Assembly (NCBI GenBank): GCA_964610505.1
Contig: CAZSXU010000014.1
Span: 4,652-68,651, forward strand
Length of the DNA stretch: 64,000 nucleotides
Source: an uncultured bacterium
GTDB lineage: Bacteria > Arandabacterota > Arandabacteria > JAGLYR01
Direction: 5' to 3'
A model generated the notes under the pieces. It saw only the letters and a program-made list of their open reading frames with translations, was not told the DNA's origin and did no database searches. A program made the translations under genes and the position numbers. Below, piece by piece: positions 24,921 to 60,967 of the stretch (its first letter is position 1; every line of letters begins with the position of its first letter).

Positions 24921-25040
24921 CTGAATTCGATATGATTATGCCACATTCGGCCGGAGAAGTCAATCGGGAAACCCGACAAGGGCAACCACGGATTTCACGG
25001 ATTCCAGAGAGCCATCTTTCCTGCAAGGTGACGAAGATGG

Positions 25041-25100
25041 GGCAAAGAACCGAAAGCCGAGAGCCGAAAGCCGGAACCCCCATGCCCCGGGCCGGCCGCG
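25041..25100. repeat. Copy A of a degenerate repeated element (AAAGCCGAGAGCC ... CGGGCCGGCCGCG)
   Basis: Shares AAAGCCGAGAGCC and CGGGCCGGCCGCG blocks with 35118..35159 and GCCGAAAGCCGG-N2-CCCCC-N-TGCCCC with 35341..35367. Confidence 0.6.
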
Positions 25101-39414: not shown

Positions 39415-40833
39415 ATGTCAAAGAACAACTCCATGTTTCATGTGCTCCAGATCCTTGCGATGGCTACCGGACTCGCGGCGGCCGCAGGCTGCGGGGGGGC
39501 TTCGAGTGGCCCCTGGCCCGAGGCCCGTCCTCTCGGGCGAGACCTCGACGCCTACCGGGCGCCTGCGCGTCCGACGTCGGCCTCCGACGCGCCGGCCCGG
39601 AGTTCGGGTGCCGATCCCCCTTCGACCGTCCTTTCCCTGAAAGATGCACTGGCGTTTGCGCTTGAGCGGAGTCCCGAGCTGGCGGCCTCCTCCTGGGAGG
39701 TTCGAGCCGCCGAAGCGAGAGCCGTTCAGGCGGCCTTAAGGCCGAACCCCGAAATCGAGCTGGAGGTCGAGGAATTCGGAGGCACCCACGGCCGGCGGGA
39801 CTTCGACGGGGCCGTCGTGATTCCGGCCGTCACTCAGGAGGTTGAGCTCGGCGGTAAACGCTCCAAGCGAAAGCGGGTTGCTCTCCTGGATACGCAGCTG
39901 GCCGGCTGGGACTACGAGTCCAAACGCCTCGATGTGTACACGGAGGTGAGGATGGCGTTCATTGCCGTACTCGCCGGCCAGGAACGGGTCCTCCTGGCCG
40001 AGGAACTGGTACGGCTGTCCGACGAGGTCTACTCGTCCGTTGCGGAAAGGGTGAACGCCGGGAAGGTTTCCCCGCTTGAAGAGACCAAGGCGAGCGTGAC
40101 TCTCTCCACCAGCCGCATCGAGCGGGACCATGCGAAACGCGATCTTGCCGTGGCGAGAAAGCGGCTTTCGATTACCTGGGGAAATCCATCGCCGACGTTT
40201 GAGAGGGTCGAGGGGCAGCTGGAGTCACCGGGCCAGGTTCCGCCCGTCGAGACGCTGGTCTCCCGGGTTGCCGGGAACCCCGAGGTGGCCCGCTGGACGA
40301 CGGCGATCGAGCAACGTCGTGCCGCCATCGAGATGGAGAAGGCCGGGAGGATTCCGGACCTGACCCTATCGGGCGGCGTCCAGCAGTTCAGGGAAACCGG
40401 CGATCGGGCATTCAAGGTGGGGATCTCCATTCCGTTTCCGATCTTTGATCGCAACCAGGGGGCGGTGAGGGAAACCGAGAGCGCCCTGGCCAAGGCGAAC
40501 GAAGAACGCCGGGCCGTCGAGGTACGGGTTCGCGGCCGGATTCTGGAAACACATGAATTGTTAACGGTAGCTCATTCGGAAGCCCGGAGTCTCGGCGAGG
40601 TGGTTCTTCCGGCCGCCCGCCGGGCGTTTGAGGCTGCCGAGGAGGGCTACCGGAGTGGGAAGCTGGGATACCTGGATGTCCTGGATGCCCAGCGGACCTA
40701 CTTCCAGGTGAAAGAACAGTGGGTCCAGGCGCTCTCGGCCTATCACGGGGCCGTGGCGGAAATGGAACGACTGATCGGCGGGTCCCTCCGGGAAGCGGGC
40801 GGGCTCGAACCAAACCAGGAGAATCAACGATGA
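39415..40833 (+). CDS. TolC-family outer membrane efflux protein (CzcC/CusC-like lipoprotein)
   Basis: Lipobox-like LAAAAGCGG; OEP-type coiled-coil repeats; stop overlaps the adaptor start (ATGA). Confidence 0.85.
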   Translation: MSKNNSMFHVLQILAMATGLAAAAGCGGASSGPWPEARPLGRDLDAYRAPARPTSASDAPARSSGADPPSTVLSLKDALAFALERSPELAASSWEVRAAEARAVQAALRPNPEIELEVEEFGGTHGRRDFDGAVVIPAVTQEVELGGKRSKRKRVALLDTQLAGWDYESKRLDVYTEVRMAFIAVLAGQERVLLAEELVRLSDEVYSSVAERVNAGKVSPLEETKASVTLSTSRIERDHAKRDLAVARKRLSITWGNPSPTFERVEGQLESPGQVPPVETLVSRVAGNPEVARWTTAIEQRRAAIEMEKAGRIPDLTLSGGVQQFRETGDRAFKVGISIPFPIFDRNQGAVRETESALAKANEERRAVEVRVRGRILETHELLTVAHSEARSLGEVVLPAARRAFEAAEEGYRSGKLGYLDVLDAQRTYFQVKEQWVQALSAYHGAVAEMERLIGGSLREAGGLEPNQENQR

Positions 40834-42299
40834 AACGAACGGAGACCTTGGCCCTGGCTGTGGCGGTCTTTCTTTTCGCAGTCTCGGGCGTCCTGTGGCT
40901 CACGAAGCCCGACTCGCCGGGTGTCCCCGCGGCGCACGACGGCGGGGATCATACCGGCGGCGGATTGTGCGGCCACGACCATTCCGCCGAGGCACCGGCG
41001 GACGCGAACGTGCCCGCGTGCGGCCACGACCATTCCGCCGAGGCACCGGCGGAAGACGGCGCACCCTCGTGCGATCATGACCATTCGGGGGAACACGCGC
41101 ACGGCGAAGGCGCGGCGGATCTTGAGATGTCGATCGATGAAATCATGACGACCGAATGCGAGCACGGAGTGGCCACGCATCTCTGCGATGACTGCCGGTA
41201 CGAAGTCGGTGTCGTCAAGGTGGACGAGTCGCTCATTCGAAATCACCCCACCTCCGAAGAGGGACTGATCCGCGTCATCCCGGCTTCCCGATCGGCAACG
41301 CCTTCCGTCTTGCGGGTCACGGGGGAGGTGGGACTCAATGAAAACCAGGCCGTTCGCATCAGCCCGCAGGTCCCCGGCATCATCCGATCGGTGCCCATTG
41401 ACATCGGTGCCCGGGTGAAGAGGGGGGACGTGCTCTTCGAGATCGAGAGCCGGGAGCTGGGGCGGGCCTTCAGTGAGTATGAGAGAAACCGGGCGATGGC
41501 GGATCTGGCCAGGCAGAACTTCGAGCGGGAGAAGACCCTTTTCGACAAGAAGATCTCCTCCGAGTGGGACATGATCGAGACGCAGATGGTCTATAAGGAG
41601 CACGAGACGAATCTCCAGGCGTCGGAGACGGCGCTCCGGGTTCTGGGATTTACGGACGAAGATCTACGGTCGCCGGCAGGACCGACGGGCGCGGCGCGGA
41701 CCGGGCGCCTCCCGGTTCGTTCGCCCATTGACGGCAGGGTCATCGAGAAACAAGCCGTGGTGGGAGAGCGGGTGGACGAAGGCGATGACCTGATGATGGT
41801 TGCGGATCTCGGTGCCGTCTGGGTGTGGGCCGACATCTATGAACAGGATCTGGCGACTCTCATCGAGGCCAGGCGGCACGGTCCGGTACCGGTCGAGGTA
41901 TCCGTGCACGCGTTTCCCGGGTTGGCGTTTCCGGGGGAGATCGACTACGTCGGCGCCGTGATGCAGGAACGAACCCGAACCGTGAAGGTGCGGGCGACGG
42001 TGGCCAACGGGGAAGAGCTTCTTCGCCCCGGGATGTTCTGCGAGATCCGGCTTCTCCTGGGAATCACCGATGCCGCCCTGGCCGTCCCCAAGGCCGCACT
42101 CCTCTCCGACGAGGGCGTCGATTTCATTTTCAAGCATCTGACGGGCAACTGTTTCGTCCGGAGACCGGTGGACCTAGGACGAGAGTTCGAGGGCCGGGTG
42201 GAGGTTCTCGCCGGACTCGGTGCCGGTGAGATGATCGTGACCGACGGCGCATTTCTTCTGAAATCGGATGTCCTGCGCTCGAAGATGGGCGCAGGCTGA
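40830..42299 (+). CDS. RND efflux periplasmic adaptor (CzcB/CusB-like) with His/Cys-rich N-terminal extension
   Basis: Start at ATG 40830 (MKRTETLALAVAVFLFAV). N-terminal CGHDHSAEAPA repeats, then HlyD-type adaptor domains. Confidence 0.85.
   Translation: MKRTETLALAVAVFLFAVSGVLWLTKPDSPGVPAAHDGGDHTGGGLCGHDHSAEAPADANVPACGHDHSAEAPAEDGAPSCDHDHSGEHAHGEGAADLEMSIDEIMTTECEHGVATHLCDDCRYEVGVVKVDESLIRNHPTSEEGLIRVIPASRSATPSVLRVTGEVGLNENQAVRISPQVPGIIRSVPIDIGARVKRGDVLFEIESRELGRAFSEYERNRAMADLARQNFEREKTLFDKKISSEWDMIETQMVYKEHETNLQASETALRVLGFTDEDLRSPAGPTGAARTGRLPVRSPIDGRVIEKQAVVGERVDEGDDLMMVADLGAVWVWADIYEQDLATLIEARRHGPVPVEVSVHAFPGLAFPGEIDYVGAVMQERTRTVKVRATVANGEELLRPGMFCEIRLLLGITDAALAVPKAALLSDEGVDFIFKHLTGNCFVRRPVDLGREFEGRVEVLAGLGAGEMIVTDGAFLLKSDVLRSKMGAG
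40967..41053 (+). repeat. In-frame 51-bp tandem repeat inside the adaptor gene
   Basis: GTGCGGCCACGACCATTCCGCCGAGGCACCGGCGGA occurs twice, 51 bp apart (40967 and 41018), encoding CGHDHSAEAPA twice; a third degenerate unit encodes CDHDHSGEHAHGE. Confidence 0.8.
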
Positions 42300-48319: not shown

Positions 48320-48338
48320 CAGCCACAGATTCCACAGA
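48320..48338. repeat. 19-bp exact direct repeat, copy 2 (CAGCCACAGATTCCACAGA)
   Basis: Identical to 38731..38749; 30 bp 3' of the Memo-like gene stop. Confidence 0.9.
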
Positions 48339-48474
48339 TTTTGACGAGAGGGACAAGGTCAAGGGCCATCCGCAGATGACGCAGATCAATGCGTAACCCC
48401 GATGCCCCTGTCCAAGCTCAACTTTCGACTGTCGACTTTCCATTTTCTCGGGCCGGCACTGCCCGGCCCGTTGG

Positions 48475-49978: not shown

Positions 49979-50368
49979 ATGAACTGGCTACCTTTTATGA
50001 TTCCCATTACCTTCATTCTGGGCGCTTTTGCCGTGGGCATCGTGGCGGTGATCATGAAGTCCAAGGCAAAGGATCGTCAGCACCAGGAGCGTATGTTCTT
50101 GGCCGAGAAAGGATTGCCGGTTCCCCCCGAGCTCTATGAGGTTTCCGAGGAAAAGAAACCCAGCGAGTTTCGGGGGTTTCGTGCGGTCCTCATGGTGCTC
50201 GGGTGCGTCACGACGCTCGTGGGGGTTTCGGTCATGATCGCACTGGGTGTTCGGGACGGCATGCAGGACGGCATAAACGGTGTGATTCCTCTTCTGATCG
50301 GCATCGGGATTCTGGTGGCCGAGAGGATGATCAACACCCTCATCGTGAAGCCCGGCAGGGAACAGTAA
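49979..50368 (+). CDS. Hypothetical small membrane protein
   Basis: 129 aa, 2-3 TM helices; SD-like GCAAGGGGGTG before the ATG. Its stop codon is the first base triplet of the 44-bp repeat array. Confidence 0.5.
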   Translation: MNWLPFMIPITFILGAFAVGIVAVIMKSKAKDRQHQERMFLAEKGLPVPPELYEVSEEKKPSEFRGFRAVLMVLGCVTTLVGVSVMIALGVRDGMQDGINGVIPLLIGIGILVAERMINTLIVKPGREQ

Positions 50369-50555
50369 GACACCGGTCAATCAGTGTGAAGCGCGCCGGC
50401 AAGGAAGGGTAAGACACCGGTCAATCAGTGTGAAGCGCGGCGGCAAGGAAGGGTAAGACACCGGTCAATTAGTGTGAAGCGCGGCGGCAAGGAAGGGTAA
50501 GACACCGGTCAATCAGTGTGAAGCGCGGCGGCAAGGAAAGGTAAGACACCGGTCA
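50366..50555 (+). repeat. 44-bp tandem direct repeat, 4 full copies plus a 14-bp partial fifth
   Basis: Units start at 50366, 50410, 50454, 50498, 50542: TAAGACACCGGTCAATCAGTGTGAAGCGCGGCGGCAAGGAAGGG, with 1-2 substitutions per copy. No spacers, so not CRISPR. Confidence 0.95.
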
Positions 50556-50997: not shown

Positions 50998-51663
50998 ATG
51001 AGGTTCGCTACGTTTCTGACCCTGATCTCTCTGTTTGGATTGACGGCGATTGCCCACGCGGGCGTTCCTCCGACCACGAACAGATTGGATGGGGACCCCG
51101 TCGCTGACGGCGTGGAGTGCATCGTGCTGGATTCCTGTGTCCAATGTCCGGCGGACGGCATTCCCGAGAACGAGGACCCCTGCTACGACTGGTATGCCAT
51201 CCCCGACATATGGAACGGCGGCTGCAATTCCGACCCGCCCATTTTCCAGATTCTCGACCCGACCTGCGAGGGGTCCATCTCCGTCTGCGGGTGGGGTGGG
51301 ACGGACCCGGGCGGCATGGGCTGGCGAGACACGGACTGGTATGAAATCACCCTGGTCGAGCCCAGCCAGATCACCGTGTGCGTGGTCGCCGAGATTCCCG
51401 TCAATCTGTTCATCATCGACGCCGCCGCCGGCTGCGCCACCACGGTGATCCTGCACGAGGCATATGCGACGGTCCCGTGTGAACCGGTGTGCATCCAGAC
51501 CGCGCTCGCCGCAGGAACCTACTGGCTGTGGGTCGGAGCCAACGACTTCTACAGCATCCCATGTGGGCAGTACCTGCTGACCGTTGATGGATACTACCCG
51601 GAAGGCGGACCGTCCGCCACGGAACGGACATCCTGGAGTACGATGAAGAACCAGTACAAGTAG
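50998..51663 (+). CDS. Secreted Cys-rich protein with PPC-like domain and conserved C-terminal tail
   Basis: Perfect SD GAGGAGG; signal peptide MRFATFLTLISLFGLTAIAHA; DTDWYEITL...NLFIID resembles a pre-peptidase C-terminal (PPC) domain; ends ...TSWSTMKNQYK. Confidence 0.55.
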   Translation: MRFATFLTLISLFGLTAIAHAGVPPTTNRLDGDPVADGVECIVLDSCVQCPADGIPENEDPCYDWYAIPDIWNGGCNSDPPIFQILDPTCEGSISVCGWGGTDPGGMGWRDTDWYEITLVEPSQITVCVVAEIPVNLFIIDAAAGCATTVILHEAYATVPCEPVCIQTALAAGTYWLWVGANDFYSIPCGQYLLTVDGYYPEGGPSATERTSWSTMKNQYK

Positions 51664-53534: not shown

Positions 53535-54833
53535 CTATTCGGGACTTTCCGTGCGGAGCACGTATCCCTCGGAGCGGGCCACGTATGCGGCGGCCGTGAT
53601 GTCGCCGGTCACGTTCAGGACCGTCCGGCACATGTCCAACAGGCGGTCGATGCCGAGGATGATTCCGATGCCTTCTCCGGGGACCCCCACGCTCTCCAGA
53701 ACGAGGACGATAACGGGGAGGGACCCGCCCGGCACGCCTGCGGTTCCGATTCCCGCAAGAACGGACATCAAGACGACCGTCACCTGCTGTGCGAAGGTCA
53801 GATCCACCCCGAAGAACTGGGCGAGGAAGAGAACGGTGACGCCCTCGTAGAGAGCGGTCCCGTTCTGGTTCGCCGTAGATCCCAGGGTCAGGACGAAGCC
53901 GGTGATGTGTCGGGGAACGCCGAGATTTCGTTCCGTGACGCGAATGGCGGTGGGGAGGGTGGCGTTGCTGGAGCTGGTCGAGAAGGCCGTGATCATGACC
54001 TCGCGAACGCCGCGGAAAAACCCGAGAGGGCTCATTCGGGCGAGGGACCGTACGAGAAGCGAGTAGACCACGAATTGGTGAATCGCCAATCCTGCGACGA
54101 CCACGAGCACGTACTTCGCCAACAGCCGGACGACGTCGAAGCCCAGGCGAGCCGTCACGGAGAACAGGAGGGCGGCGACTCCGTAAGGGGCCAACTTCAT
54201 GGCGAATCCGATGATCTTCATCACGGCTTCATAGAGCCCCTCCAGGAAAGCGATGAAGGTCGCCGTTTTCTCGCGATCGCCGATCGCCAGAGCCACGCCG
54301 AGGACGAGGGAGAAGAACATGACGGACAGGATCCCCCCGCCGGTGTAGTTGGAATCGAAGGCGCCCACGACGTCTTCAAAGGGATTCCTGGGGATGATGT
54401 CCACAAGGGTCTGGATGGGGGTCTTTGCCTCGGCCGCGCGCTCGACTTTCTCCGCCGCCTGGGATGCAAACGTTTCCAGCAGAATCGCCTGCGATTCCTC
54501 CGGAAGCCCGGTACCCGGGCGGATCACGTTGACCAGCGTCAATCCGATCGCCACCGAGATCGTCGTGACAATGAGCGTGTAGCCAAAGGTCTTGAGACCC
54601 ACCCTTCCGAGGCGACGCACGTCCCCCAGCTCGGCCACCCCCAGGGTGAGGGCCGAGAAGATCAGGGGAATGACCACCATGAAGATCATTCGGAGGAAGA
54701 TCTGACCGACCGGATAGGTGACGTTCCGGACGGTCCACTCGACCGCCGGGTGGGAACCCGCGATGAGATTGACGGTGATCCCCGCGGCCCCGCCCAGGAT
54801 GAGGCCGATGAGGATTTTTGTGTGAAGCGGCAT
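53535..54833 (-). CDS. Dicarboxylate/amino acid:cation symporter (DAACS; GltP/DctA-like)
   Basis: Start chosen at ATG 54833 (MPLHTKILIGLILGGAAGI). DAACS conserved regions (SSSNATLPT, GTALYEGV, GIDRLLDMCRTVLNVTGD). Confidence 0.85.
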   Translation of the reverse strand: MPLHTKILIGLILGGAAGITVNLIAGSHPAVEWTVRNVTYPVGQIFLRMIFMVVIPLIFSALTLGVAELGDVRRLGRVGLKTFGYTLIVTTISVAIGLTLVNVIRPGTGLPEESQAILLETFASQAAEKVERAAEAKTPIQTLVDIIPRNPFEDVVGAFDSNYTGGGILSVMFFSLVLGVALAIGDREKTATFIAFLEGLYEAVMKIIGFAMKLAPYGVAALLFSVTARLGFDVVRLLAKYVLVVVAGLAIHQFVVYSLLVRSLARMSPLGFFRGVREVMITAFSTSSSNATLPTAIRVTERNLGVPRHITGFVLTLGSTANQNGTALYEGVTVLFLAQFFGVDLTFAQQVTVVLMSVLAGIGTAGVPGGSLPVIVLVLESVGVPGEGIGIILGIDRLLDMCRTVLNVTGDITAAAYVARSEGYVLRTESPE

Positions 54834-55063
54834 GCAGCGATGGCGGTGATCCTGTGGGTCCAAGACGGTATCCTCGACGGTGGCGGACGCATCTATTGGT
54901 ACGTGATCCGCTCGCCGAGGACAAGGACAAAGTGCGGGCGGAGCCGAAGGGCAGAACAATAGAGCAATAGAGCAACTGGATCGATGGACCGCAATGGGGC
55001 CGGGTGTGTTTCTCTATGATGCTTCTCACCAGAATCTACTTGCTCGATTGCTCCATTGCTCTG

Positions 55064-55110
55064 CCTGGATGAATCCGGGCTCCGGTACCCGGCGCCCGGA
55101 TTCATCCAGG
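55064..55110 (-). terminator. 17-bp perfect inverted repeat abutting the lipid kinase stop (putative terminator or RNA element)
   Basis: CCTGGATGAATCCGGGC-(13 nt)-GCCCGGATTCATCCAGG directly 3' of the stop at 55111-55113; no U-tract follows. Confidence 0.45.
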
Positions 55111-56082
55111 CTACGACCGGTCCCACAGTTTCGTGATGGGATTGCTCTGAATGAGATGCAGAATCTCGGCCCGGAGGTCCGGGAGGCCCGTGCGTTTGAA
55201 ATCCGGAGGGGGAACGACGAGACGAAGAGCGCCCGGTGCACAGCGGATATCCACGGGCGTGGTGCCGACGATCTCACAGTCGGCGTGCACGGGCAGTTTC
55301 TCGGGCGAGCGGATCCGGACGGCGCCGGCCTGGACGTATTCGACGTCCTCGAGGTCGAGCTGTTTGAGTTGTGCGGTGGCGACCACGTAGCGGAGAAGGT
55401 CCGCCAGGCCACGCCGCTTGAAAACACAGATGTCCAGCTTTCCGTCGTCCAGGCGCGCCAGCGGCGTCACCTTGAACCCGGCGGCGTAGTTTCGTGAATT
55501 GCCTACGATCACGAAGTATCCCCGGCGGGGTTCGCTCTCCCCCTCGACGGAGAGTTCCATTTCGCACGGCTCGAACGTAATCACGGTCTGGAGAGCGGTG
55601 AGGGGGTACGCGGCCGATCCGAAGATTCTCTTCATGAGAGGATCCACCTCACTGGCCACCTGCGCGTCGAGACCGATCCCCACCATGAGCAGGAAGTTCC
55701 GATCCCGGACCACGCCCAGATCGACGGTCACCGTGTATCCCTCGAACATGACGTCCGTGGCGTGAGAGAGATCGAGCGGGATGGAGAATTCCTGTGCGAG
55801 GACGTTCTCCGTTCCCTGCGGGAGAATGGCCAGAGGGACCTCGCTGCCGGCCAGACCATTGATAACCTCATTGATGGTTCCGTCTCCTCCCGCGGCGATC
55901 ACGAGATCCAGGCCCTCGCGAACCGCCCTCCCTGCCGCCTCGGTTGCATCCCCGGGCGCACGGGTCCGGTGCACGCGAAGAGAAATTCCCCGCCGGGCCA
56001 TTCTCCCGCGGATGACGTCCGCGTCGACGCGCGGCAACCACGTGCCCGAAGCCGGATTGATGATGAGATATGCCTGGTTCAT
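55111..56082 (-). CDS. Diacylglycerol-kinase-family lipid kinase (YegS/DagK-like)
   Basis: LIINPASG and VIAAGGDGTINEV catalytic-domain motifs. Confidence 0.8.
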   Translation of the reverse strand: MNQAYLIINPASGTWLPRVDADVIRGRMARRGISLRVHRTRAPGDATEAAGRAVREGLDLVIAAGGDGTINEVINGLAGSEVPLAILPQGTENVLAQEFSIPLDLSHATDVMFEGYTVTVDLGVVRDRNFLLMVGIGLDAQVASEVDPLMKRIFGSAAYPLTALQTVITFEPCEMELSVEGESEPRRGYFVIVGNSRNYAAGFKVTPLARLDDGKLDICVFKRRGLADLLRYVVATAQLKQLDLEDVEYVQAGAVRIRSPEKLPVHADCEIVGTTPVDIRCAPGALRLVVPPPDFKRTGLPDLRAEILHLIQSNPITKLWDRS

Positions 56083-56084
56083 AG

Positions 56085-56153
56085 GAACGAACCTCGGAAC
56101 CTCAGAACTCAGAACCGAGAACTCAGAACTGGGACCTTAGAACTCAGAACCTG
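56085..56153. repeat. Tandem heptamer repeat (GAACTCA)n, about 9 imperfect units
   Basis: GAAC recurs with exact 7-bp period from 56105 to 56153 (gaactca gaaccga gaactca gaactgg gacctta gaactca gaacctg), preceded by two 8-bp variants. Fills the 72-bp gap between the GWxTD-like gene stop and the lipid kinase start. Confidence 0.85.
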
Positions 56154-56154
56154 T

Positions 56155-58242
56155 TCACCGTGTGACATAGAACGTCGTACTTGTCCCCGTCTCGGTACCG
56201 GCCACGGTGTCCTGAATGCTTAGCGTCAGAACGTATCGACCGAACCGCAGGGGCGCGAGATCCAGCGACAGCCGCCGGGGCGAGAATGAGGACGCGCCCT
56301 CGTATGTGAAGGTATTGGCGATGTGAGGTGGGGTTGAGGGCTTTCTCCGGAAGAGCCGGCGGATTCCTTCCCAGAGACCCCCGGCATCTTCGACGTCGAT
56401 CGGAATGACCCGCACGGTTGCCTTGAAACTCGAGCGGCCGCTCCCGTCCAGCGCCAGGCCGTAGACCTCGTAGTAGAAATGGACAGGCTTCGCGCGGCGG
56501 AAGCGGCGGGTCGGCTCCGGCTCGACGGTCAGATCCCCTTTATCGAACGGAGTTCTTCCGGGGGAGGGGCGGATGGCTCTTGCCAGCTGGATGTCGCTGA
56601 TCATCAGACTCGAAGAATCAAAGGCCCTGACGTCAAGCGCCACCTCCGTAAGGCCGATCAGTTCCTCTCGCTCATCCTCCACCGAGATGGCCGCCAGGTA
56701 TCGGCCCGGGAGTAGATTGTAGTCGCTCTGATGAATGAGCGCCCCTCTTCGCACATTCGTCAGCGTGCCGGAGACCTGGGTGATGACGGTGGTGGTTTCG
56801 CGGGCCACGATCTCCCAGTCTTCGTTGTAGATGAGGATTCGTCTCAGGAGTTTCTCCGTCCAGACATCGCCCTCCTTCACGAACCCCAGATCCTCCGCAG
56901 GGACGGCATAGTAGATTTCCTGCCGGGTGATTCCGGGATCGCGGAGGAATGAGCAGGCGTCCGCGATCATTCGAATCTGTGTCCCCTCGTACAGTGGAAG
57001 ATGGAATTCCGGAATCTCGCGGATCATCGTCTCCCAACGCCTCGCATCCGTTCTCCCCTCGTCGAAGGCGAAGCCGAACTGCCCGTCGAGGAAGCGATCG
57101 CGAAACGTGAGCTGGAAATGCTTGCCCTCCATCTCGTAGGTCCACACCTCAACCGGGCGGGGATTGCGCTCGACCTGGTCGTCCTCCATCCCGAGGGCAA
57201 TTTCGTCCTTTCTCAGTTTCCTTTTTGTCTCATCGAGGAAGGAAGCCCGTTCCAGCGGGGGGCCGTACCGGATGTGGGACTGGCCCCGTGCGGAATCCCG
57301 GCCTCGAAGACCGGCCCTGGGAGCTTCGAATCGAAGATCGGCCTGAAGGATACGCCGCCAGTGTTCGAGAAGACGTTCGTTTGCCTCCGTGCTCAGGTCG
57401 GGATCGCGGTTCCGCCACAACCGGCGCCCGAACTCCGCCACGACTGCGGCGTCGGCCTCCCCGGATCCGAGTCCGAGGTTCTCCGCGTACCCGTCGATCC
57501 CGAGAAACAGGGCTCGGCTCTCGCGACTCGTCTCAAGGATGGCGTTCCAGTACGCCTCCTCCGCTTCCTCCAGTTTCCCCCGGCCCTGGAGGGCCGCGCC
57601 ATACTGGAAAAGCGCTTCCGTGTCGGAGGGATCGTCCACGAGGATCCGGAGGAGAGCTTCCTCGGCCATGCCATATTCCTCCAGCTCGTTGGACACCCGG
57701 CCCAGGGTATAGAGCAGATCCCGGTCGGTGGAGCCCTTGTCGTAACCTTGGACAAGGAGGTCGTATGCCTTCCGCAGGTCCTTGTCCTGGTCCCGCCAGC
57801 GCCGGATGTAGATGGCGCCGCATTCCACGTAGGCCTCGGGTCTCTCGGGGGCCACCTCGATGGTCTTCAGAAAAGATTTCTCCGCATACCGGTCGAAGGA
57901 CTGGGCGGCCTGGACCCGACCGAGCGCCAGATGGTAGTCGGCGTTCTGCGGATCGTACCGAATGGCGAGCTCGTATGCCTCGGCCGCCAATCTTCGCGCC
58001 TCGATGGTGTTCAGCCGGAAATAGGCCTCGGCCAGCCGGGCGTGAGCATCGGCGAACTTGTAGTCCTCGTGGACGGCCGCACGGAATTCCTCGATGGCCT
58101 TGTGGGTGTCTCCCTGTTCAAGAAGAGCCACGCCGGCATCGTAGTGAGGGCGGGGTTTTTCGTCCCTGGCCTCGGCCGCGTGGCCGAGACAAATCGCAAA
58201 TGCGATCAGAGAGATCACGACCGCTTGTCGAGAAGTGACCAT
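56155..58242 (-). CDS. TPR + GWxTD-like domain protein (paralog 1), secreted
   Basis: Signal peptide MVTSRQAVVISLIAFAICLGHA; N-terminal TPRs; central FGRRLWRNRDPDL...GLRGRDSARGQSHIRYGPP resembles the GWxTD domain core with W replaced by R. Confidence 0.65.
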   Translation of the reverse strand: MVTSRQAVVISLIAFAICLGHAAEARDEKPRPHYDAGVALLEQGDTHKAIEEFRAAVHEDYKFADAHARLAEAYFRLNTIEARRLAAEAYELAIRYDPQNADYHLALGRVQAAQSFDRYAEKSFLKTIEVAPERPEAYVECGAIYIRRWRDQDKDLRKAYDLLVQGYDKGSTDRDLLYTLGRVSNELEEYGMAEEALLRILVDDPSDTEALFQYGAALQGRGKLEEAEEAYWNAILETSRESRALFLGIDGYAENLGLGSGEADAAVVAEFGRRLWRNRDPDLSTEANERLLEHWRRILQADLRFEAPRAGLRGRDSARGQSHIRYGPPLERASFLDETKRKLRKDEIALGMEDDQVERNPRPVEVWTYEMEGKHFQLTFRDRFLDGQFGFAFDEGRTDARRWETMIREIPEFHLPLYEGTQIRMIADACSFLRDPGITRQEIYYAVPAEDLGFVKEGDVWTEKLLRRILIYNEDWEIVARETTTVITQVSGTLTNVRRGALIHQSDYNLLPGRYLAAISVEDEREELIGLTEVALDVRAFDSSSLMISDIQLARAIRPSPGRTPFDKGDLTVEPEPTRRFRRAKPVHFYYEVYGLALDGSGRSSFKATVRVIPIDVEDAGGLWEGIRRLFRRKPSTPPHIANTFTYEGASSFSPRRLSLDLAPLRFGRYVLTLSIQDTVAGTETGTSTTFYVTR

Positions 58243-58248
58243 GGATTC

Positions 58249-58276
58249 ATTATCCGACTGTAGCCGGGCATGTCAA
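58249..58276 (-). promoter_or_regulatory. Candidate promoter TTGACA-N16-GATAAT ending 6 nt before the ATG (near-leaderless)
   Basis: Minus strand: TTGACA (plus 58271-58276), 16-nt spacer, GATAAT (plus 58249-58254), then gaatcc, then ATG at 58242. Confidence 0.4.
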
Positions 58277-58417
58277 GGTCCGGATACGGACGGGACGGCG
58301 GGTCTGCGAATGGACCCGACGAGGCAACCATTCTGTCATTAAACCCGGCAGTAGCCCGGGCATCCTGCCCGGGATGGCGTCCCCAAGATCCCAGAGGTTT
58401 CGTCGTGTTCGCCTGTT

Positions 58418-58852
58418 TCACAAATGCCTGACGTCGAGGCCGGTTCGGCGCGAAACCGTCTCGGCGAGACGGCTGCGATGACAGCGCCGCACGTCCTTTT
58501 CCACGCAGACGAGAACAGAGGGGGTGGTCTTCACGAGCTCGGCCAGTCGCTCAAGGGCGTCTTCCTGTTCGGGCAGGATTTCGTGCTCGTACTTGTCGAG
58601 GAGATGCTGGTATGACGCGTCATCTGTGAGATTCTTCCGGAGCTCTTTCGGCACGCCGAGGTCCGGCATGTGTACGTACCCGAGGCCGAGCTTCTCTCCG
58701 GTTTCGCTGAATTGCCTCTTGGAGAAACCATATCGCCGGGACACCGGATCGGCTCGCACGTCGACGATACACCGGATGCCCTCTTTCAGAAGCGGGTCGA
58801 AGAAGGCATCAACCGACTTTCCCTCGTAACCCGCTGTGTACACGGCAGGCAT
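58418..58852 (-). CDS. DUF488 family protein
   Basis: 144 aa; YTAGYEGKS...IRCIVDVRADPVSRRYGFSK resembles DUF488 (YeaO-like) by recall. Confidence 0.6.
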   Translation of the reverse strand: MPAVYTAGYEGKSVDAFFDPLLKEGIRCIVDVRADPVSRRYGFSKRQFSETGEKLGLGYVHMPDLGVPKELRKNLTDDASYQHLLDKYEHEILPEQEDALERLAELVKTTPSVLVCVEKDVRRCHRSRLAETVSRRTGLDVRHL

Positions 58853-58884
58853 GGTCTCCTCCTGTGTGTGCTCTGTGCACGCTG

Positions 58885-60933
58885 CTAGCGCGTGATATAC
58901 AGCGATGTGCTCCGCGCGGTTCGTGTGTCGGCCACCAGATCATGCACGCCCACGGTCACACGGTAGACGCCGGGTTTCAGCGTCGTAAGATCCAGCGACA
59001 GGTGCAGGGGGGCGGAGCCGGATGGATACCGGTGCGTGAAAGTACTGGCGATGTGCGGGGGCGTGGACGGTTTCCGGCCGAACAGCCGTCGTGCGGCATC
59101 CCAGAAGCTCTCTTCCTCTTCGACGTCCAGAGGAATCACGCGCACCGTGGACTTGAAGTGGGATTGCGCGCTCTCATCCAGGGCGAGTCCATAGACCTCG
59201 TAGTAGAGATTCACGGGCTTGGAGCGCCGGAAGCGGTGAGAGGGCTCGGGTTCCACGCGCAGGGAGACCTTATTGAACCGGCTCTTGCCCGTGGCGGGCT
59301 TGATCGAGCGGGCCAGCTCGATGTCGCTGATCTCCAGTTCCCGGCCTTCGAAGGTCCGGGCGACGATTCCGACCTCGGTCACTCCCAGCACCTCGGCGGC
59401 GGCGTCTTCCACCTGAACGGCCGCAAGGTAGGTCCCGGGTTTGAGATCGAAGTGGCACTGGTCGACGATCTGGGCGTCCCTCAGCAGCTCAAGGGAACCG
59501 GCCGGCTCGGTGATCACGGTCGTGGATTCCGCCGCCACCACGTGCCAATCCCGATCGTAGATCACGATTCGCCTCTCGAGTTTGCTGCTCCACCCCTCGG
59601 GGTCCTTCCGGAAGTGGAGCTCCCGTCCCGGCACCGTGTAGTAGATTTCCTGGTGTGTCTCACCCCGGATGCGGGAGAAAGAACAGGCGTCCGCGATCAG
59701 GCGAATCTCCTTGCCCTCGTATTCGGGCACGTAGAATTCAGGCAGCTGCCGAACGAGGATCTGCCAGCGCTTGGCCGACCCTCCGTCCTTTTCGGGTTCG
59801 AAGTCGAACGGAAAGCCGAATTCTCCGTTCAAGAAGCGGTCTTCGAATCGGAAGCGGAACCTGTGGCCTCCGATGTGGTAGCTCCACATCTCGTTGGGCC
59901 GGAGATTCTCGGCGATGTAGCAGGTCATCTCCGTCGGCGGACCGTAGCGGACGTAGGATCGGCCCCGGTCGGAGTACCGGCCCTTGAGCCCCGTCTTCTC
60001 CGAGGTGAAGTAGAGGTCCGCCTTGAGAATCCTCCGGTAGTGCTCGAGAAGCCGTTCGTTGACCTGGGTGGCGAGATACGGATCGTGCTCCCGCCAGAAT
60101 CGCCGCGCCAGCTCCGCCGTGCTGTCCGGATCGATCTTGCGAAGAAACCTCTGCAGCGGCTGGGACGCCACCTCTTCGATTCCGAGGAAGACCAACTTGT
60201 CCTGCACGTCCATTGCGGAGATCGCCCGGGCGTACTGAGTTTCCGCCTCCTCCAGCCGCTCCAGGTCATGGAGCGCCAGGGCCATCACGAAGCGCATTTC
60301 CGTGTCGTCCGGGTTCATCTCAAGCGTTCGCGTCGCGATGTCCAGCGCGGTCTCGGGATCCTCCCTCTCTATCGAAAGCCGGGCGAGATGGAACAGGATG
60401 TCGCGATCGGTGGAGCCCCGGTCGGAGGCTTCTTGAAAGCAGTCGTGGGCTCGCTCCAGATCGTCGTCGTACTGGCGGAAGGTGAGCCAGCGACGGATGT
60501 AAATGAGGCCCCGTTCGAGGTAAGCCTCGGTCAGTTCGGGGTCGATCTCGATGGCCTTGCGGAAGCAGGCCTCCGCGTACCGATCGAATGTCTGGTTCAC
60601 GTAGACTCTGCCCAGCGCAAGCTGGTAGTCGGCGTTGTCGGAATCGTACCGAAGGGCCAGACGATACTCTTCGACGGCGAGGCGGCGGCCTTCGATCGTG
60701 TCGAGAGCCGCGTAGGCCTCGGCCAGCTTCGCGTGAGCGTCGGCGAACTTGAAATCCTCGTGTACGGCCCGGCGGAGAGTCTCGATTGCTTCGCTGAAGT
60801 TGCCCTGGTCCAGGAATCTGAGGCCAAGATGGTAGCTGCGCAGGGCCTCGTCGCGGCCGGCGTGCGCCTGCCCTGTGAGAAGAAACACAAGGACTGCCAA
60901 GACTAAGCCAACGTACCGGTGATGGCGGTTCAT
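58885..60933 (-). CDS. TPR + GWxTD-like domain protein (paralog 2), secreted
   Basis: Start set at first ATG 60933 (MNRHHRYVGLVLAVLVFLLTGQAHA) rather than the upstream GTG at 60960, because the conserved promoter lies in between. Core ARRFWREHDPYL...GLKGRYSDRGRSYVRYGPP. Confidence 0.65.
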   Translation of the reverse strand: MNRHHRYVGLVLAVLVFLLTGQAHAGRDEALRSYHLGLRFLDQGNFSEAIETLRRAVHEDFKFADAHAKLAEAYAALDTIEGRRLAVEEYRLALRYDSDNADYQLALGRVYVNQTFDRYAEACFRKAIEIDPELTEAYLERGLIYIRRWLTFRQYDDDLERAHDCFQEASDRGSTDRDILFHLARLSIEREDPETALDIATRTLEMNPDDTEMRFVMALALHDLERLEEAETQYARAISAMDVQDKLVFLGIEEVASQPLQRFLRKIDPDSTAELARRFWREHDPYLATQVNERLLEHYRRILKADLYFTSEKTGLKGRYSDRGRSYVRYGPPTEMTCYIAENLRPNEMWSYHIGGHRFRFRFEDRFLNGEFGFPFDFEPEKDGGSAKRWQILVRQLPEFYVPEYEGKEIRLIADACSFSRIRGETHQEIYYTVPGRELHFRKDPEGWSSKLERRIVIYDRDWHVVAAESTTVITEPAGSLELLRDAQIVDQCHFDLKPGTYLAAVQVEDAAAEVLGVTEVGIVARTFEGRELEISDIELARSIKPATGKSRFNKVSLRVEPEPSHRFRRSKPVNLYYEVYGLALDESAQSHFKSTVRVIPLDVEEEESFWDAARRLFGRKPSTPPHIASTFTHRYPSGSAPLHLSLDLTTLKPGVYRVTVGVHDLVADTRTARSTSLYITR

Positions 60934-60939
60934 ATTCCC

Positions 60940-60967
60940 ATTATCCGCCCGATCACGCACTCGTCAA
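60940..60967 (-). promoter_or_regulatory. Candidate promoter TTGACG-N16-GATAAT ending 6 nt before the ATG (paralogous to 58249..58276)
   Basis: Minus strand: TTGACG (plus 60962-60967), 16-nt spacer, GATAAT (plus 60940-60945), then gggaat, then ATG at 60933. Confidence 0.4.

What the first reader, a model, noticed from the sequence alone, without database searches (positions are those of the whole stretch)
56085..56153. Heptamer (GAACTCA)n array filling the junction between the GWxTD-like gene and the lipid kinase
About nine imperfect 7-bp units occupy the whole 72-bp spacer and end 3 nt before the kinase ATG, so on the mRNA the kinase start is preceded by repeated UGAGUUC units instead of a normal SD region. 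Simple-sequence repeats at this position can change length by slipped-strand mispairing (phase or rheostat variation of spacing and translation) or act as a repeated protein-binding site.
Basis: seen in the sequence. Interest (0 to 1): 0.45.

Follow-up and report, generated by a model that had tools for sequence, protein, structure and literature searches.

The report
Decayed heptamer repeat between two genes
The 72-base gap between a TPR/GWxTD-like gene and a lipid-kinase gene is filled by a real but decayed 7-base tandem repeat of a kind already known to be common between bacterial genes. It carries the kinase's ribosome-binding site, and it shows no sign of being a length-switching regulator.

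Summary
Window 56083-56154 holds nine GTTC cores and one GGTC at 7-8 nt spacing on the coding (-) strand, where chance predicts about 0.04 three-unit matches.

The repeat is degenerate. Three units are perfect TGAGTTC and the longest perfect tract is 15 nt. The spacer is identical at 72 nt in all five metagenome assemblies checked.

It does not replace the SD. GAGG sits 9 nt before the kinase ATG, inside the last 8-nt unit.

Six relatives with 72-82% identical kinases lack the array. The closest relative (85%) keeps two units after the stop and three before the ATG, split by about 330 bp.

GTTCTNR arrays turned up in at least 120 species from many phyla. Period 7 dominates the other tandem repeats near those arrays.

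I file it as a new member of the known, functionally unexplained class of intergenic heptanucleotide repeats (STRR, TAACTGA, GGGAATC types).

Most likely it is a slippage-born intercistronic spacer that supplies the SD. A repeated-binding-site role is not excluded, because the GTTC cores are conserved (p=8e-4) and both ends of the spacer are constrained.

The parts
56083..56154 (-). Whole 72-nt intercistronic spacer, which is the heptamer array. It has ten units with a GTTC core (one is GGTC). GTTC cores lie at 56150-56147, 56143-56140, (GGTC 56136-56133), 56129-56126, 56122-56119, 56115-56112, 56108-56105, 56100-56097, 56092-56089 and 56088-56085.
56092..56095 (-). GAGG, the likely Shine-Dalgarno core of the kinase, 9 nt before the ATG. 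It is embedded in the last 8-nt unit. A second GAGG lies at 56100-56103.
   Evidence: Read from the sequence. The same motif and spacing precede other genes in the window. L005 has GGGGG at the equivalent place.
56083..56110 (-). Start-proximal 28 nt (GAGTTCTGAGGTTCCGAGGTTCGTTCCT), conserved in the closest relative L005.
   Evidence: 23 of 28 positions are identical, against 56% identity at four-fold sites of the kinase gene (binomial p=0.003).
56131..56154 (-). Stop-proximal segment ACAGGTTCT[GAGTTCT]AAGGTCCC. L005 has the same sequence minus the bracketed unit.
   Evidence: 15 of 17 aligned positions are identical (p=0.005), with a one-unit (7-nt) indel between the two lineages.
56076..56093 (-). 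Predicted local hairpin GGUUCGU-UCCU-AUGAACC. It pairs the last repeat units with the start codon and codons 2-3.
   Evidence: The 50-nt fold is -15.9 kcal/mol, z=-2.27, with 6 of 200 shuffles as stable. It is not conserved in L005 (z=-0.98), so this is weak evidence.
55111..56082 (-). YegS/DAGK-family lipid kinase gene (323 aa), downstream of the array.
   Evidence: Pfam DAGK_cat 2.4e-29 and YegS_C 1e-31. Closest named homologue is Candidatus Eisenbacteria, 74% identity.
56155..58242 (-). TPR plus GWxTD-like gene 'TPR1' (695 aa), upstream of the array. Its TGA stop is at 56157-56155.
   Evidence: It is a paralogue of 58885-60960 (TPR2). A TPR1-type orthologue was found only in L005.
58249..58276 (-). 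Sigma-70-like promoter TTGACA-16-GATAAT, 6 nt before the TPR1 ATG. It is the likely start of the transcript that carries the array and the kinase.
   Evidence: 11 of 12 matches. No promoter-like site was found inside the array.

Best explanation
The array is a degenerate heptanucleotide simple-sequence repeat: unit GTTCTGA/TGAGTTC in mRNA sense, which is GAACTCA on the + strand.

I infer that it arose by slipped-strand or tandem duplication of GTTC-containing units. Those units already flanked the young TPR1-kinase junction: two sit after the stop and three before the ATG in the sister lineage. The array then decayed by point mutation and two 1-nt insertions.

Today it probably acts as a passive intercistronic spacer. 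The mRNA most likely starts at the promoter just upstream of TPR1. The last 8-nt unit supplies the kinase's SD (GAGG, 9 nt from the ATG). The units place UGA in all three frames behind TPR1. The only notable predicted structure is a small hairpin between the last unit and AUGAACC.

It is not currently a length-switching element.

Shown: the anatomy, uniqueness within the window, invariance across assemblies, absence in most relatives, and the existence of the wider GTTCTNR array family. Inferred: origin by slippage, co-transcription with TPR1, and use of GAGG as the SD.
For: - Anatomy and significance.
- Longest perfect period-7 tract is 15 nt (from the sequence).
- Identical 72-nt spacer in five assemblies (ERZ27256778, JGI 3300029267, 3300017987, 3300017989, SRR6963311). 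L004 differs by 2 SNPs over 8 kb but not in the array.
- Relatives with 72-82% identical kinases have other upstream sequences, two of them with promoter-like TTGCA(C/G)-N17-18-TAGAGT motifs, and no GTTC array. Their upstream gene, where the contig shows one, is TPR2-type or unrelated, so the TPR1-kinase junction is young.
- L005 (85%) keeps both ends of the array and differs by one unit plus a block of about 330 bp.
- SD use elsewhere in the window.
- No promoter or terminator in the array. The fold of the whole spacer is not unusual (z=-0.69 and -1.75). No Rfam or tRNA match.
About 77% of these arrays are intergenic, with no strong strand bias towards flanking genes (++ 12, -- 22). That pattern fits a DNA-level mutational process.
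- Period 7 accounts for 88 of 162 other tandem repeats in those flanks.
- Literature: heptamers are the over-represented SSR size in bacteria, and a polymerase-slippage explanation has been proposed (PMC4692102).
Against: - Substitutions within the array are far from uniform: 9 of 27 linker positions differ from the consensus against 1 of 40 GTTC-core positions (Fisher p=8e-4). Simple neutral decay does not predict this.
- Both ends of the spacer are more conserved against L005 than four-fold sites (82% and 88% against 56%). Part of the array is therefore under constraint beyond the 4-nt SD.
- No experiment or transcript data support co-transcription or use of the SD.
- Only 64 kb of this genome could be surveyed.
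Confidence: 0.6

Rival explanations
1. The array is a repeated binding platform on the mRNA. The phased GUUC cores, every 7-8 nt up to the start codon, would be bound cooperatively by a single-strand RNA-binding protein (cold-shock-domain, S1-like or other) or used as a ribosome standby site. That would tune kinase translation, as proposed for TAACTGA repeats in Beggiatoaceae.
For: - GTTC cores are conserved while linkers vary (p=8e-4).
- The ends of the array are conserved against L005 above the neutral level.
- The array is in sense orientation, ends 2 nt before the ATG and is largely unstructured.
- A precedent exists: sense-oriented TAACTGA heptamer sets ending 1 to a few nt before start codons (PMC4679880). 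The unit shares CTGA with GTTCTGA.
- From memory, and not tested here: CSD proteins contact about 6-7 nt and prefer GTCTTTG-like heptamers.
Against: - It is the only such array in 64 kb, so there is no visible regulon.
- It is absent from six relatives of the same kinase.
- L005 tolerates about 330 bp inserted in the middle.
- In other phyla the GTTCTNR arrays show no consistent orientation to genes.
- No candidate binding protein was identified.
Confidence: 0.18
2. The array is a contingency or rheostat locus. Its length would change by slipped-strand mispairing and so alter kinase expression.
For: - Its position is on the 5' side of the start codon.
- The heptamer class is known to vary in 7-nt steps between strains in other taxa (PMC4679880; PMC4692102).
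- There is a one-unit difference in the stop-proximal part against L005.
- H. influenzae hmw (ATCTTTC)n is a working example of a 7-nt rheostat in a 5' UTR (PMC12721329).
Against: - The tract is interrupted: at most 2.1 perfect copies, and 3 of 9 full-length units match the consensus.
- Five assemblies from at least three samples all have 72 nt.
- hmw-type switching uses at least 11 repeats and a long 5'-UTR hairpin. No such hairpin is predicted here.
Confidence: 0.08
3. The array is a leftover arm or scar of a larger intergenic repeat element. It could be one arm of an inverted heptamer-array hairpin, or the site of an insertion and excision. The present array would then be what a ~330-bp block like the one in L005 left behind, or what such a block interrupted.
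For: - 26 of 127 GTTCTNR arrays in other genomes have an inverted (GAAC)3 partner within 300 nt.
- The neighbouring intergenic region in this window, and L006, carry inverted arrays of tandem octamers.
- L005 has a ~330-bp block exactly between the two conserved ends. That block contains a motif, GAATCCGTGAAATCYGTGG, that is dispersed to other intergenic regions.
Against: - No inverted partner lies within 400 nt here.
- No terminal repeats or target duplication can be distinguished from the repeat itself.
- The direction of change (insertion in L005 or deletion here) cannot be set without an outgroup that has the TPR1-kinase junction.
Confidence: 0.09
4. The array is a DNA-level operator. The heptads would be bound side by side by a dimeric repressor, as the omega protein of pSM19035 binds arrays of 7-bp heptads, controlling an internal promoter for the kinase.
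For: Contiguous 7-bp direct repeats with a conserved 4-bp core. The 21-bp super-period is two helical turns.
Against: - No promoter-like -35/-10 lies in or next to the array, whereas this clade's promoters look sigma-70-like.
- No ribbon-helix-helix or other regulator gene lies next to it.
- It is a single site in 64 kb.
Confidence: 0.04

Closest known systems
Intergenic heptanucleotide SSRs: cyanobacterial STRR sequences, GGGAATC in Xanthomonas, GGGGA(T/C)T in Nostoc. This is the 'long SSR' class in which 7-nt units are over-represented (PMC4692102 and the work it cites).
   Same: Head-to-tail 7-nt units. Intergenic location. Length and sequence change between close relatives. Sometimes arranged as inverted pairs. 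Function unknown, with polymerase slippage proposed as the origin.
   Different: The unit (GTTCTGA) is not one of the described ones. Only one array was seen in 64 kb, whereas STRR-type repeats are dispersed in many copies. This array is strongly degenerate and contains two 8-nt units.
TAACTGA direct repeats of marine Beggiatoaceae, some Cyanobacteria and Bacteroidetes (MacGregor 2015, PMC4679880).
   Same: A heptamer in sense orientation, ending within a few nt of a start codon and overlapping the ribosome-binding region. It has stop codons in every frame and little predicted structure. The unit shares CTGA.
   Different: Those sets have 2-6 units, number 169 per genome, and mostly lack any SD. 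Here there are about 10 units, a single locus, and a GAGG at normal spacing. The first three bases of the unit differ (GTT against TAA).
H. influenzae hmw1A/hmw2A (ATCTTTC)n 5'-UTR repeat (PMC12721329).
   Same: A 7-nt repeat transcribed upstream of a start codon. It is the model for rheostat control by repeat number.
   Different: hmw has at least 11 repeats, a long RNase III-processed hairpin and measured length variation. Here the repeat is interrupted, no long hairpin is predicted, and no variation was seen.
Heptad operators of the omega repressor (pSM19035). This comparison is from memory and was not tested.
   Same: Arrays of 7-10 contiguous 7-bp units that serve as cooperative protein-binding sites.
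   Different: Omega sites overlap promoters and lie next to the repressor gene. Neither is seen here.
GTTCTNR heptamer arrays found here in Acidobacteriota, Verrucomicrobiota, Planctomycetota, Chloroflexota, Bacteroidota and others.
   Same: Same GTTC(T) core and 7-nt period. Mostly intergenic. They often begin a few nt after a stop codon, as here. GTTCTGA is one of the common units (87 units counted).
   Different: Those arrays are mostly near-perfect and have 3-46 units. About 20% have an inverted partner. I found no paper that describes them, so this is a sequence class and not a characterised family.

Membership tests
Intergenic heptanucleotide SSR (STRR-like / long SSR class) | Head-to-tail copies of a 7-nt unit | tested here: met
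   TRF gives period 7, 7.1-8.8 copies, 70-74% matches. Ten phased cores, two of the units 8 nt long.
Intergenic heptanucleotide SSR (STRR-like / long SSR class) | Non-coding location | tested here: met
   It fills the 72-nt gap between two confirmed genes. UGA occurs in all three frames of the sense strand.
Intergenic heptanucleotide SSR (STRR-like / long SSR class) | The same unit dispersed at many loci of the genome (the 'repetitive' part of STRR) | tested here: not met
   There is no second GTTC array in the 64-kb window, nor in 12 kb of L001. The rest of the genome was not available, so this holds only for the window.
Intergenic heptanucleotide SSR (STRR-like / long SSR class) | Copy number differs between related genomes | tested here: met
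   The window has about 10 units. L005 has 2+3 units and a one-unit indel in the shared part. The other relatives have none.
Phase-variable / rheostat SSR (hmw type) | Long uninterrupted repeat tract | tested here: not met
   The longest perfect period-7 tract is 15 nt (2.1 units). hmw has at least 11 repeats.
Phase-variable / rheostat SSR (hmw type) | Length heterogeneity within the species or population | tested here: not met
   Five assemblies are all 72 nt and identical. Assemblies are consensus sequences, so minority alleles would be missed.
Phase-variable / rheostat SSR (hmw type) | Repeat number changes expression of the downstream gene | not testable with these tools
   This needs reporter fusions or expression data.
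TAACTGA-type start-proximal heptamer repeats | Unit TAACTGA | tested here: not met
   The unit is GTTCTGA. Only CTGA is shared.
TAACTGA-type start-proximal heptamer repeats | Sense orientation, ending within a few nt of a start codon | tested here: met
   The last GTTC ends 2 nt before the ATG.
TAACTGA-type start-proximal heptamer repeats | Replaces a recognisable SD; many loci per genome | tested here: not met
   GAGG lies at -13 to -10. There is a single locus in 64 kb.
Omega-type heptad operator | Heptad array overlaps a promoter and lies near its ribbon-helix-helix repressor gene | tested here: not met
   No promoter-like site lies in the array. The neighbouring genes are TPR, DUF488, kinase and SDF transporter.
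TRAP / HutP-type RNA sites | (G/U)AG triplets separated by 2-3 nt (TRAP) or 4 nt (HutP), with the cognate protein encoded in the genome | tested here: inconclusive
   GAG recurs in 5 units, and the 4-5 nt gaps are closer to HutP than to TRAP. The other units have AAG, CAG or CGG. Presence of a HutP or TRAP gene could not be checked beyond the window. The definitions of these sites are from memory.

The most novel reading that the evidence does not exclude
The phased GUUC cores may be a cis-acting platform read by a protein or by the ribosome itself, setting translation of the lipid kinase. The window's array would then be one local instance of an undescribed GTTC-core heptad system present in at least 120 species across many phyla, functionally parallel to the proposed TAACTGA network.
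Probability: 0.15. Interest if true: 0.65.

Novelty: new member of a known kind. Interest (0 to 1): 0.3.

Why it matters
On its own the locus matters little. It is one decayed repeat in an uncultured Eisenbacteria-like bacterium, and it does not behave like a switch.

It is useful as a documented case in two ways. First, it shows a heptamer repeat growing inside a newly formed gene junction and ending up carrying the ribosome-binding site of the downstream gene. Second, it shows an uneven decay pattern, with a conserved GTTC core and free linkers.

The wider result is that GTTCTNR arrays occur in very many phyla, and that period 7 dominates the other short tandem repeats near those arrays. This restates an old open question: why bacteria favour 7-nt repeats, and whether any of them are read by a protein.

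Tried and rejected
- **Known RNAs.** Rfam at gathering thresholds on the whole window, and at E≤1 on 54700-56400, found nothing relevant; the only hits were a hairpin behind the kinase that resembles a miRNA model. There are no tRNA or tmRNA genes.
- **RNA structure of the spacer.** z=-0.69 (116 nt) and -1.75 (98 nt), so a structured element is rejected. Only a local start-codon hairpin reaches z=-2.27, and it is not conserved in L005.
- **Internal promoter or terminator.** None was found.
- **Extra alleles.** A metagenome scan with the kinase 5' end returned only the same contig and an unrelated AT-rich chance match, L014.
- **A regulon of GTTC arrays.** None exists in the window or in the related loci L005-L013.
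- **Orthologous conservation of the array.** This is rejected for six relatives. Their upstream gene, where the contig shows one, is TPR2-type or unrelated, so the junction is not orthologous.
- **Literature search for the exact units.** It returned only unrelated primer sequences.
- **Inverted partner array.** None lies within 400 nt.
- **Alphaproteobacterial LexA box GTTC-N7-GTTC (from memory).** The spacings here, N3/N4/N10, do not fit.

Full report
**What is there**

Both flanking genes lie on the - strand. In mRNA sense the 72-nt spacer (window 56154 down to 56083) reads as follows, starting at the TGA stop of the upstream gene and ending at the kinase ATG:

TGA-A CAGGTTC TGAGTTC TAAGGTC CCAGTTC TGAGTTC TCGGTTC TGAGTTC TGAGGTTC CGAGGTTC GTTC CT-ATG.

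- The downstream gene (55111-56082) is a YegS/DAGK-family lipid kinase.
- The upstream gene (56155-58242, "TPR1") carries TPR repeats. Only its paralogue 58885-60960 ("TPR2") reaches the Pfam GWxTD threshold.
- TRF reports period 7 with 7.1-8.8 copies and 70-74% matches, plus a 21-nt super-period.
- Nine GAAC in 72 bp is the maximum for the 64 kb; the next best window has five.
- The three-unit pattern GTTC-N3-4-GTTC-N3-4-GTTC occurs four times, all here, against 0.04 expected.

The array does not stand in place of an SD. GAGG (56095-56092) lies 9 nt before the ATG inside the last 8-nt unit, and a second GAGG lies 8 nt further up. GAGG or GGAGG at 5-10 nt precedes many clear genes in the window (18 of 43 crude calls, for example caggaggagaccATG). 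The closest relative has GGGGG at the same place.

**Is it a switch?**

The repeat is degenerate. Three units are perfect TGAGTTC, and the longest stretch with perfect 7-nt periodicity is 15 nt.

The same locus was recovered from five assemblies: ENA ERZ27256778, JGI 3300029267, 3300017987 and 3300017989, and Logan SRR6963311. All have the identical 72-nt spacer. One of them differs by two SNPs elsewhere in 8 kb.

A metagenome scan with the kinase 5' end gave no further alleles.

The documented 7-nt rheostat, H. influenzae hmw, uses at least 11 repeats and a long RNase III-processed 5'-UTR hairpin (PMC12721329). Here the spacer's fold is not unusual (z=-0.69 and -1.75). Read-level variation could not be tested.

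**Evolutionary history**

The kinase has seven relatives at 72-85% identity and then nothing above 44%. The nearest named one is Candidatus Eisenbacteria.

The 72-82% relatives (L006, L007, L009, L010, L011, L013) have no GTTC array upstream of the kinase.
- L009 and L011 have promoter-like TTGCA(C/G)-N17-18-TAGAGT motifs there.
- L006 has (CCTTGTCA)x3.9 directly before the ATG.
- In L006, L009, L010 and L011 the upstream gene is TPR2-type (56-78% identity to TPR2, about 51% to TPR1). L007 has an unrelated upstream gene, and the short L013 contig shows none.

So the TPR1-kinase junction is a young, lineage-specific junction.

Only L005 (kinase 85%, TPR1 C-terminus 76%) shares it. There the stop is followed by ACACAGGTTCTAAGTTC. 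The ATG is preceded by TCTGTGGTTCCGGGGGTTCGTTCTT. About 330 bp lie between the two.

Both ends of the window's array are therefore older than the split.
- The stop-proximal part differs by exactly one 7-nt unit.
- The two ends are 15/17 and 23/28 identical, whereas four-fold sites of the kinase are only 56% identical (p=0.005 and 0.003).

Whether L005 gained the 330 bp or the window lineage lost it and expanded cannot be decided without an outgroup.

**A hint of constraint**

Against the consensus TGAGTTC, 9 of 27 linker positions are substituted but only 1 of 40 GTTC-core positions (Fisher p=8e-4). The one deviant core (GGTC) is GTTC in L005.

Uniform neutral decay does not predict this. It is the main reason I keep a binding-platform reading alive.

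The last unit can also pair with the start region: GGUUCGU-UCCU-AUGAACC, -15.9 kcal/mol in a 50-nt context, z=-2.27. L005 does not conserve that fold.

**Transcription context**

The only promoter-like site nearby is TTGACA-16-GATAAT at 58276-58249, ending 6 nt before the TPR1 ATG. TPR1 may therefore be leaderless. No promoter or terminator motif lies in the array. I infer that the kinase is read from the TPR1 transcript.

**The class it belongs to**

About 0.5 chance matches are expected in 596 Gb (my estimate assuming equal base frequencies). Hits came from Acidobacteriota (many), Verrucomicrobiota, Planctomycetota, Chloroflexota, Bacteroidota, Myxococcota, Cyanobacteria and others.

- Arrays have 3-46 units. 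The common units are GTTCTCA, GTTCTTG, GTTCTCG, GTTCTGA and GTTCTGG.
- With a crude gene caller, 98 of 127 arrays are intergenic.
- Orientation to co-directional neighbours is not strongly biased (12 against 22).
- Many arrays begin a few nt after a stop codon, as here.
- About a fifth have an inverted partner array within 300 nt, which makes long hairpins. The window's array has none.
- Two Sulfotelmatobacter species carry orthologous arrays of 10 and 11 units.
- In the 846 kb around these arrays, the other tandem repeats with at least 3 copies are mostly period 7: 88 of 162, against 11 for period 6 and 17 for period 8. These flanks were chosen because a heptamer array was present, so this is not an unbiased genome sample.

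**What the literature says**

- Heptamers are the over-represented SSR size in many bacteria.
- Specific families have been described: Calothrix STRR, GGGAATC in Xanthomonas and GGGGA(T/C)T in Nostoc.
- These vary in length between close relatives and have no established function. A link to polymerase slippage has been proposed (PMC4692102).
- TAACTGA repeats in Beggiatoaceae, Cyanobacteria and Bacteroidetes sit in sense orientation just before start codons. They were proposed, without experiments, to regulate translation through S1, Csp or CsrA-like proteins (PMC4679880).
- No paper in the searchable library contains GTTCTCA- or GTTCTGA-type arrays.

**Verdict**

The array is a new member of the known class of intergenic heptanucleotide repeats, here in a decayed and apparently fixed state.

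My best explanation (0.6) is a slippage-born intercistronic spacer that now carries the kinase's SD.

The rivals are:
- an RNA-level repeated binding platform (0.18)
- a leftover of a larger repeat element or of an insertion/deletion event (0.09)
- a length-variable rheostat (0.08)
- a DNA heptad operator (0.04)

Noticed in passing
window 54950-55111 (- strand), the intergenic region between the kinase stop and the SDF transporter gene: Two adjacent strong hairpins. One is a 23-bp near-perfect hairpin that starts at the kinase stop (55063-55111). The other is a long hairpin whose arms are tandem octamer arrays (GAGCAAT x3 ... ATTGCTC x3, 54950-54981 / 55034-55065). Together they give -89.5 kcal/mol, z=-9.6. 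No Rfam family matches.
   Followed up: partly
window 50353-50555: A 44-bp unit repeated 4.6 times at 95% identity. It overlaps the 3' end of a DUF6249 gene (49979-50368, +) and extends into the intergenic region before the 221-aa ORF at 50998.
   Followed up: no
window 24986-25004 (-), window 48323-48340, L005 705-723, L006 5443-5468: A tandem 9-mer motif, AATCYGTGR x2 (GAATCCGTGAAATCCGTGG), recurs in non-orthologous intergenic regions of this genome and two relatives. About 40 nt around it are shared between window ~25000 and L005. It may be a dispersed regulatory or mobile intergenic motif.
   Followed up: partly
window 24935-25078 (-): A second short heptamer array (GCTYTCG-like, 3.4 copies, 25046-25078) lies 35 nt after the stop of the 706-aa gene. 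It is followed by a promoter-like TTGACT-17-CATAAT (24963-24935), about 260 nt upstream of the 1250-aa gene.
   Followed up: no
window 58242-58276 (-): The -10 box GATAAT ends 6 nt before the TPR1 ATG, so TPR1 may be translated from a leaderless mRNA.
   Followed up: no
window 56155-60960; loci L006, L009, L010, L011: TPR1 and TPR2 are paralogues (about 50% identical). Four relatives have a TPR2-type gene directly upstream of the kinase. DUF488 plus TPR1 therefore look like a lineage-specific duplication or insertion.
   Followed up: partly
L006 4224-4238 and 4396-4426: (CCTTGTCA)x3.9 lies directly before the orthologous kinase ATG, with an inverted copy (GACAAGGCGACAAGG) about 160 nt upstream. 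Different relatives carry different short tandem repeats in front of the same gene.
   Followed up: no
L016-L135 (GTDB genomes): GTTCTNR heptamer arrays occur in at least 120 species of many phyla. The 5' end of the GTTC strand abuts a gene boundary (within 25 nt) in 42 arrays, against 15 for the 3' end. The inverted-pair architecture, seen in only 26 of 127 arrays, does not explain this asymmetry.
   Followed up: partly
window 40967-41086: A 51-bp unit repeated 2.4 times (85% matches) inside the ORF 40719-42299. It is presumably a repeated peptide segment.
   Followed up: no
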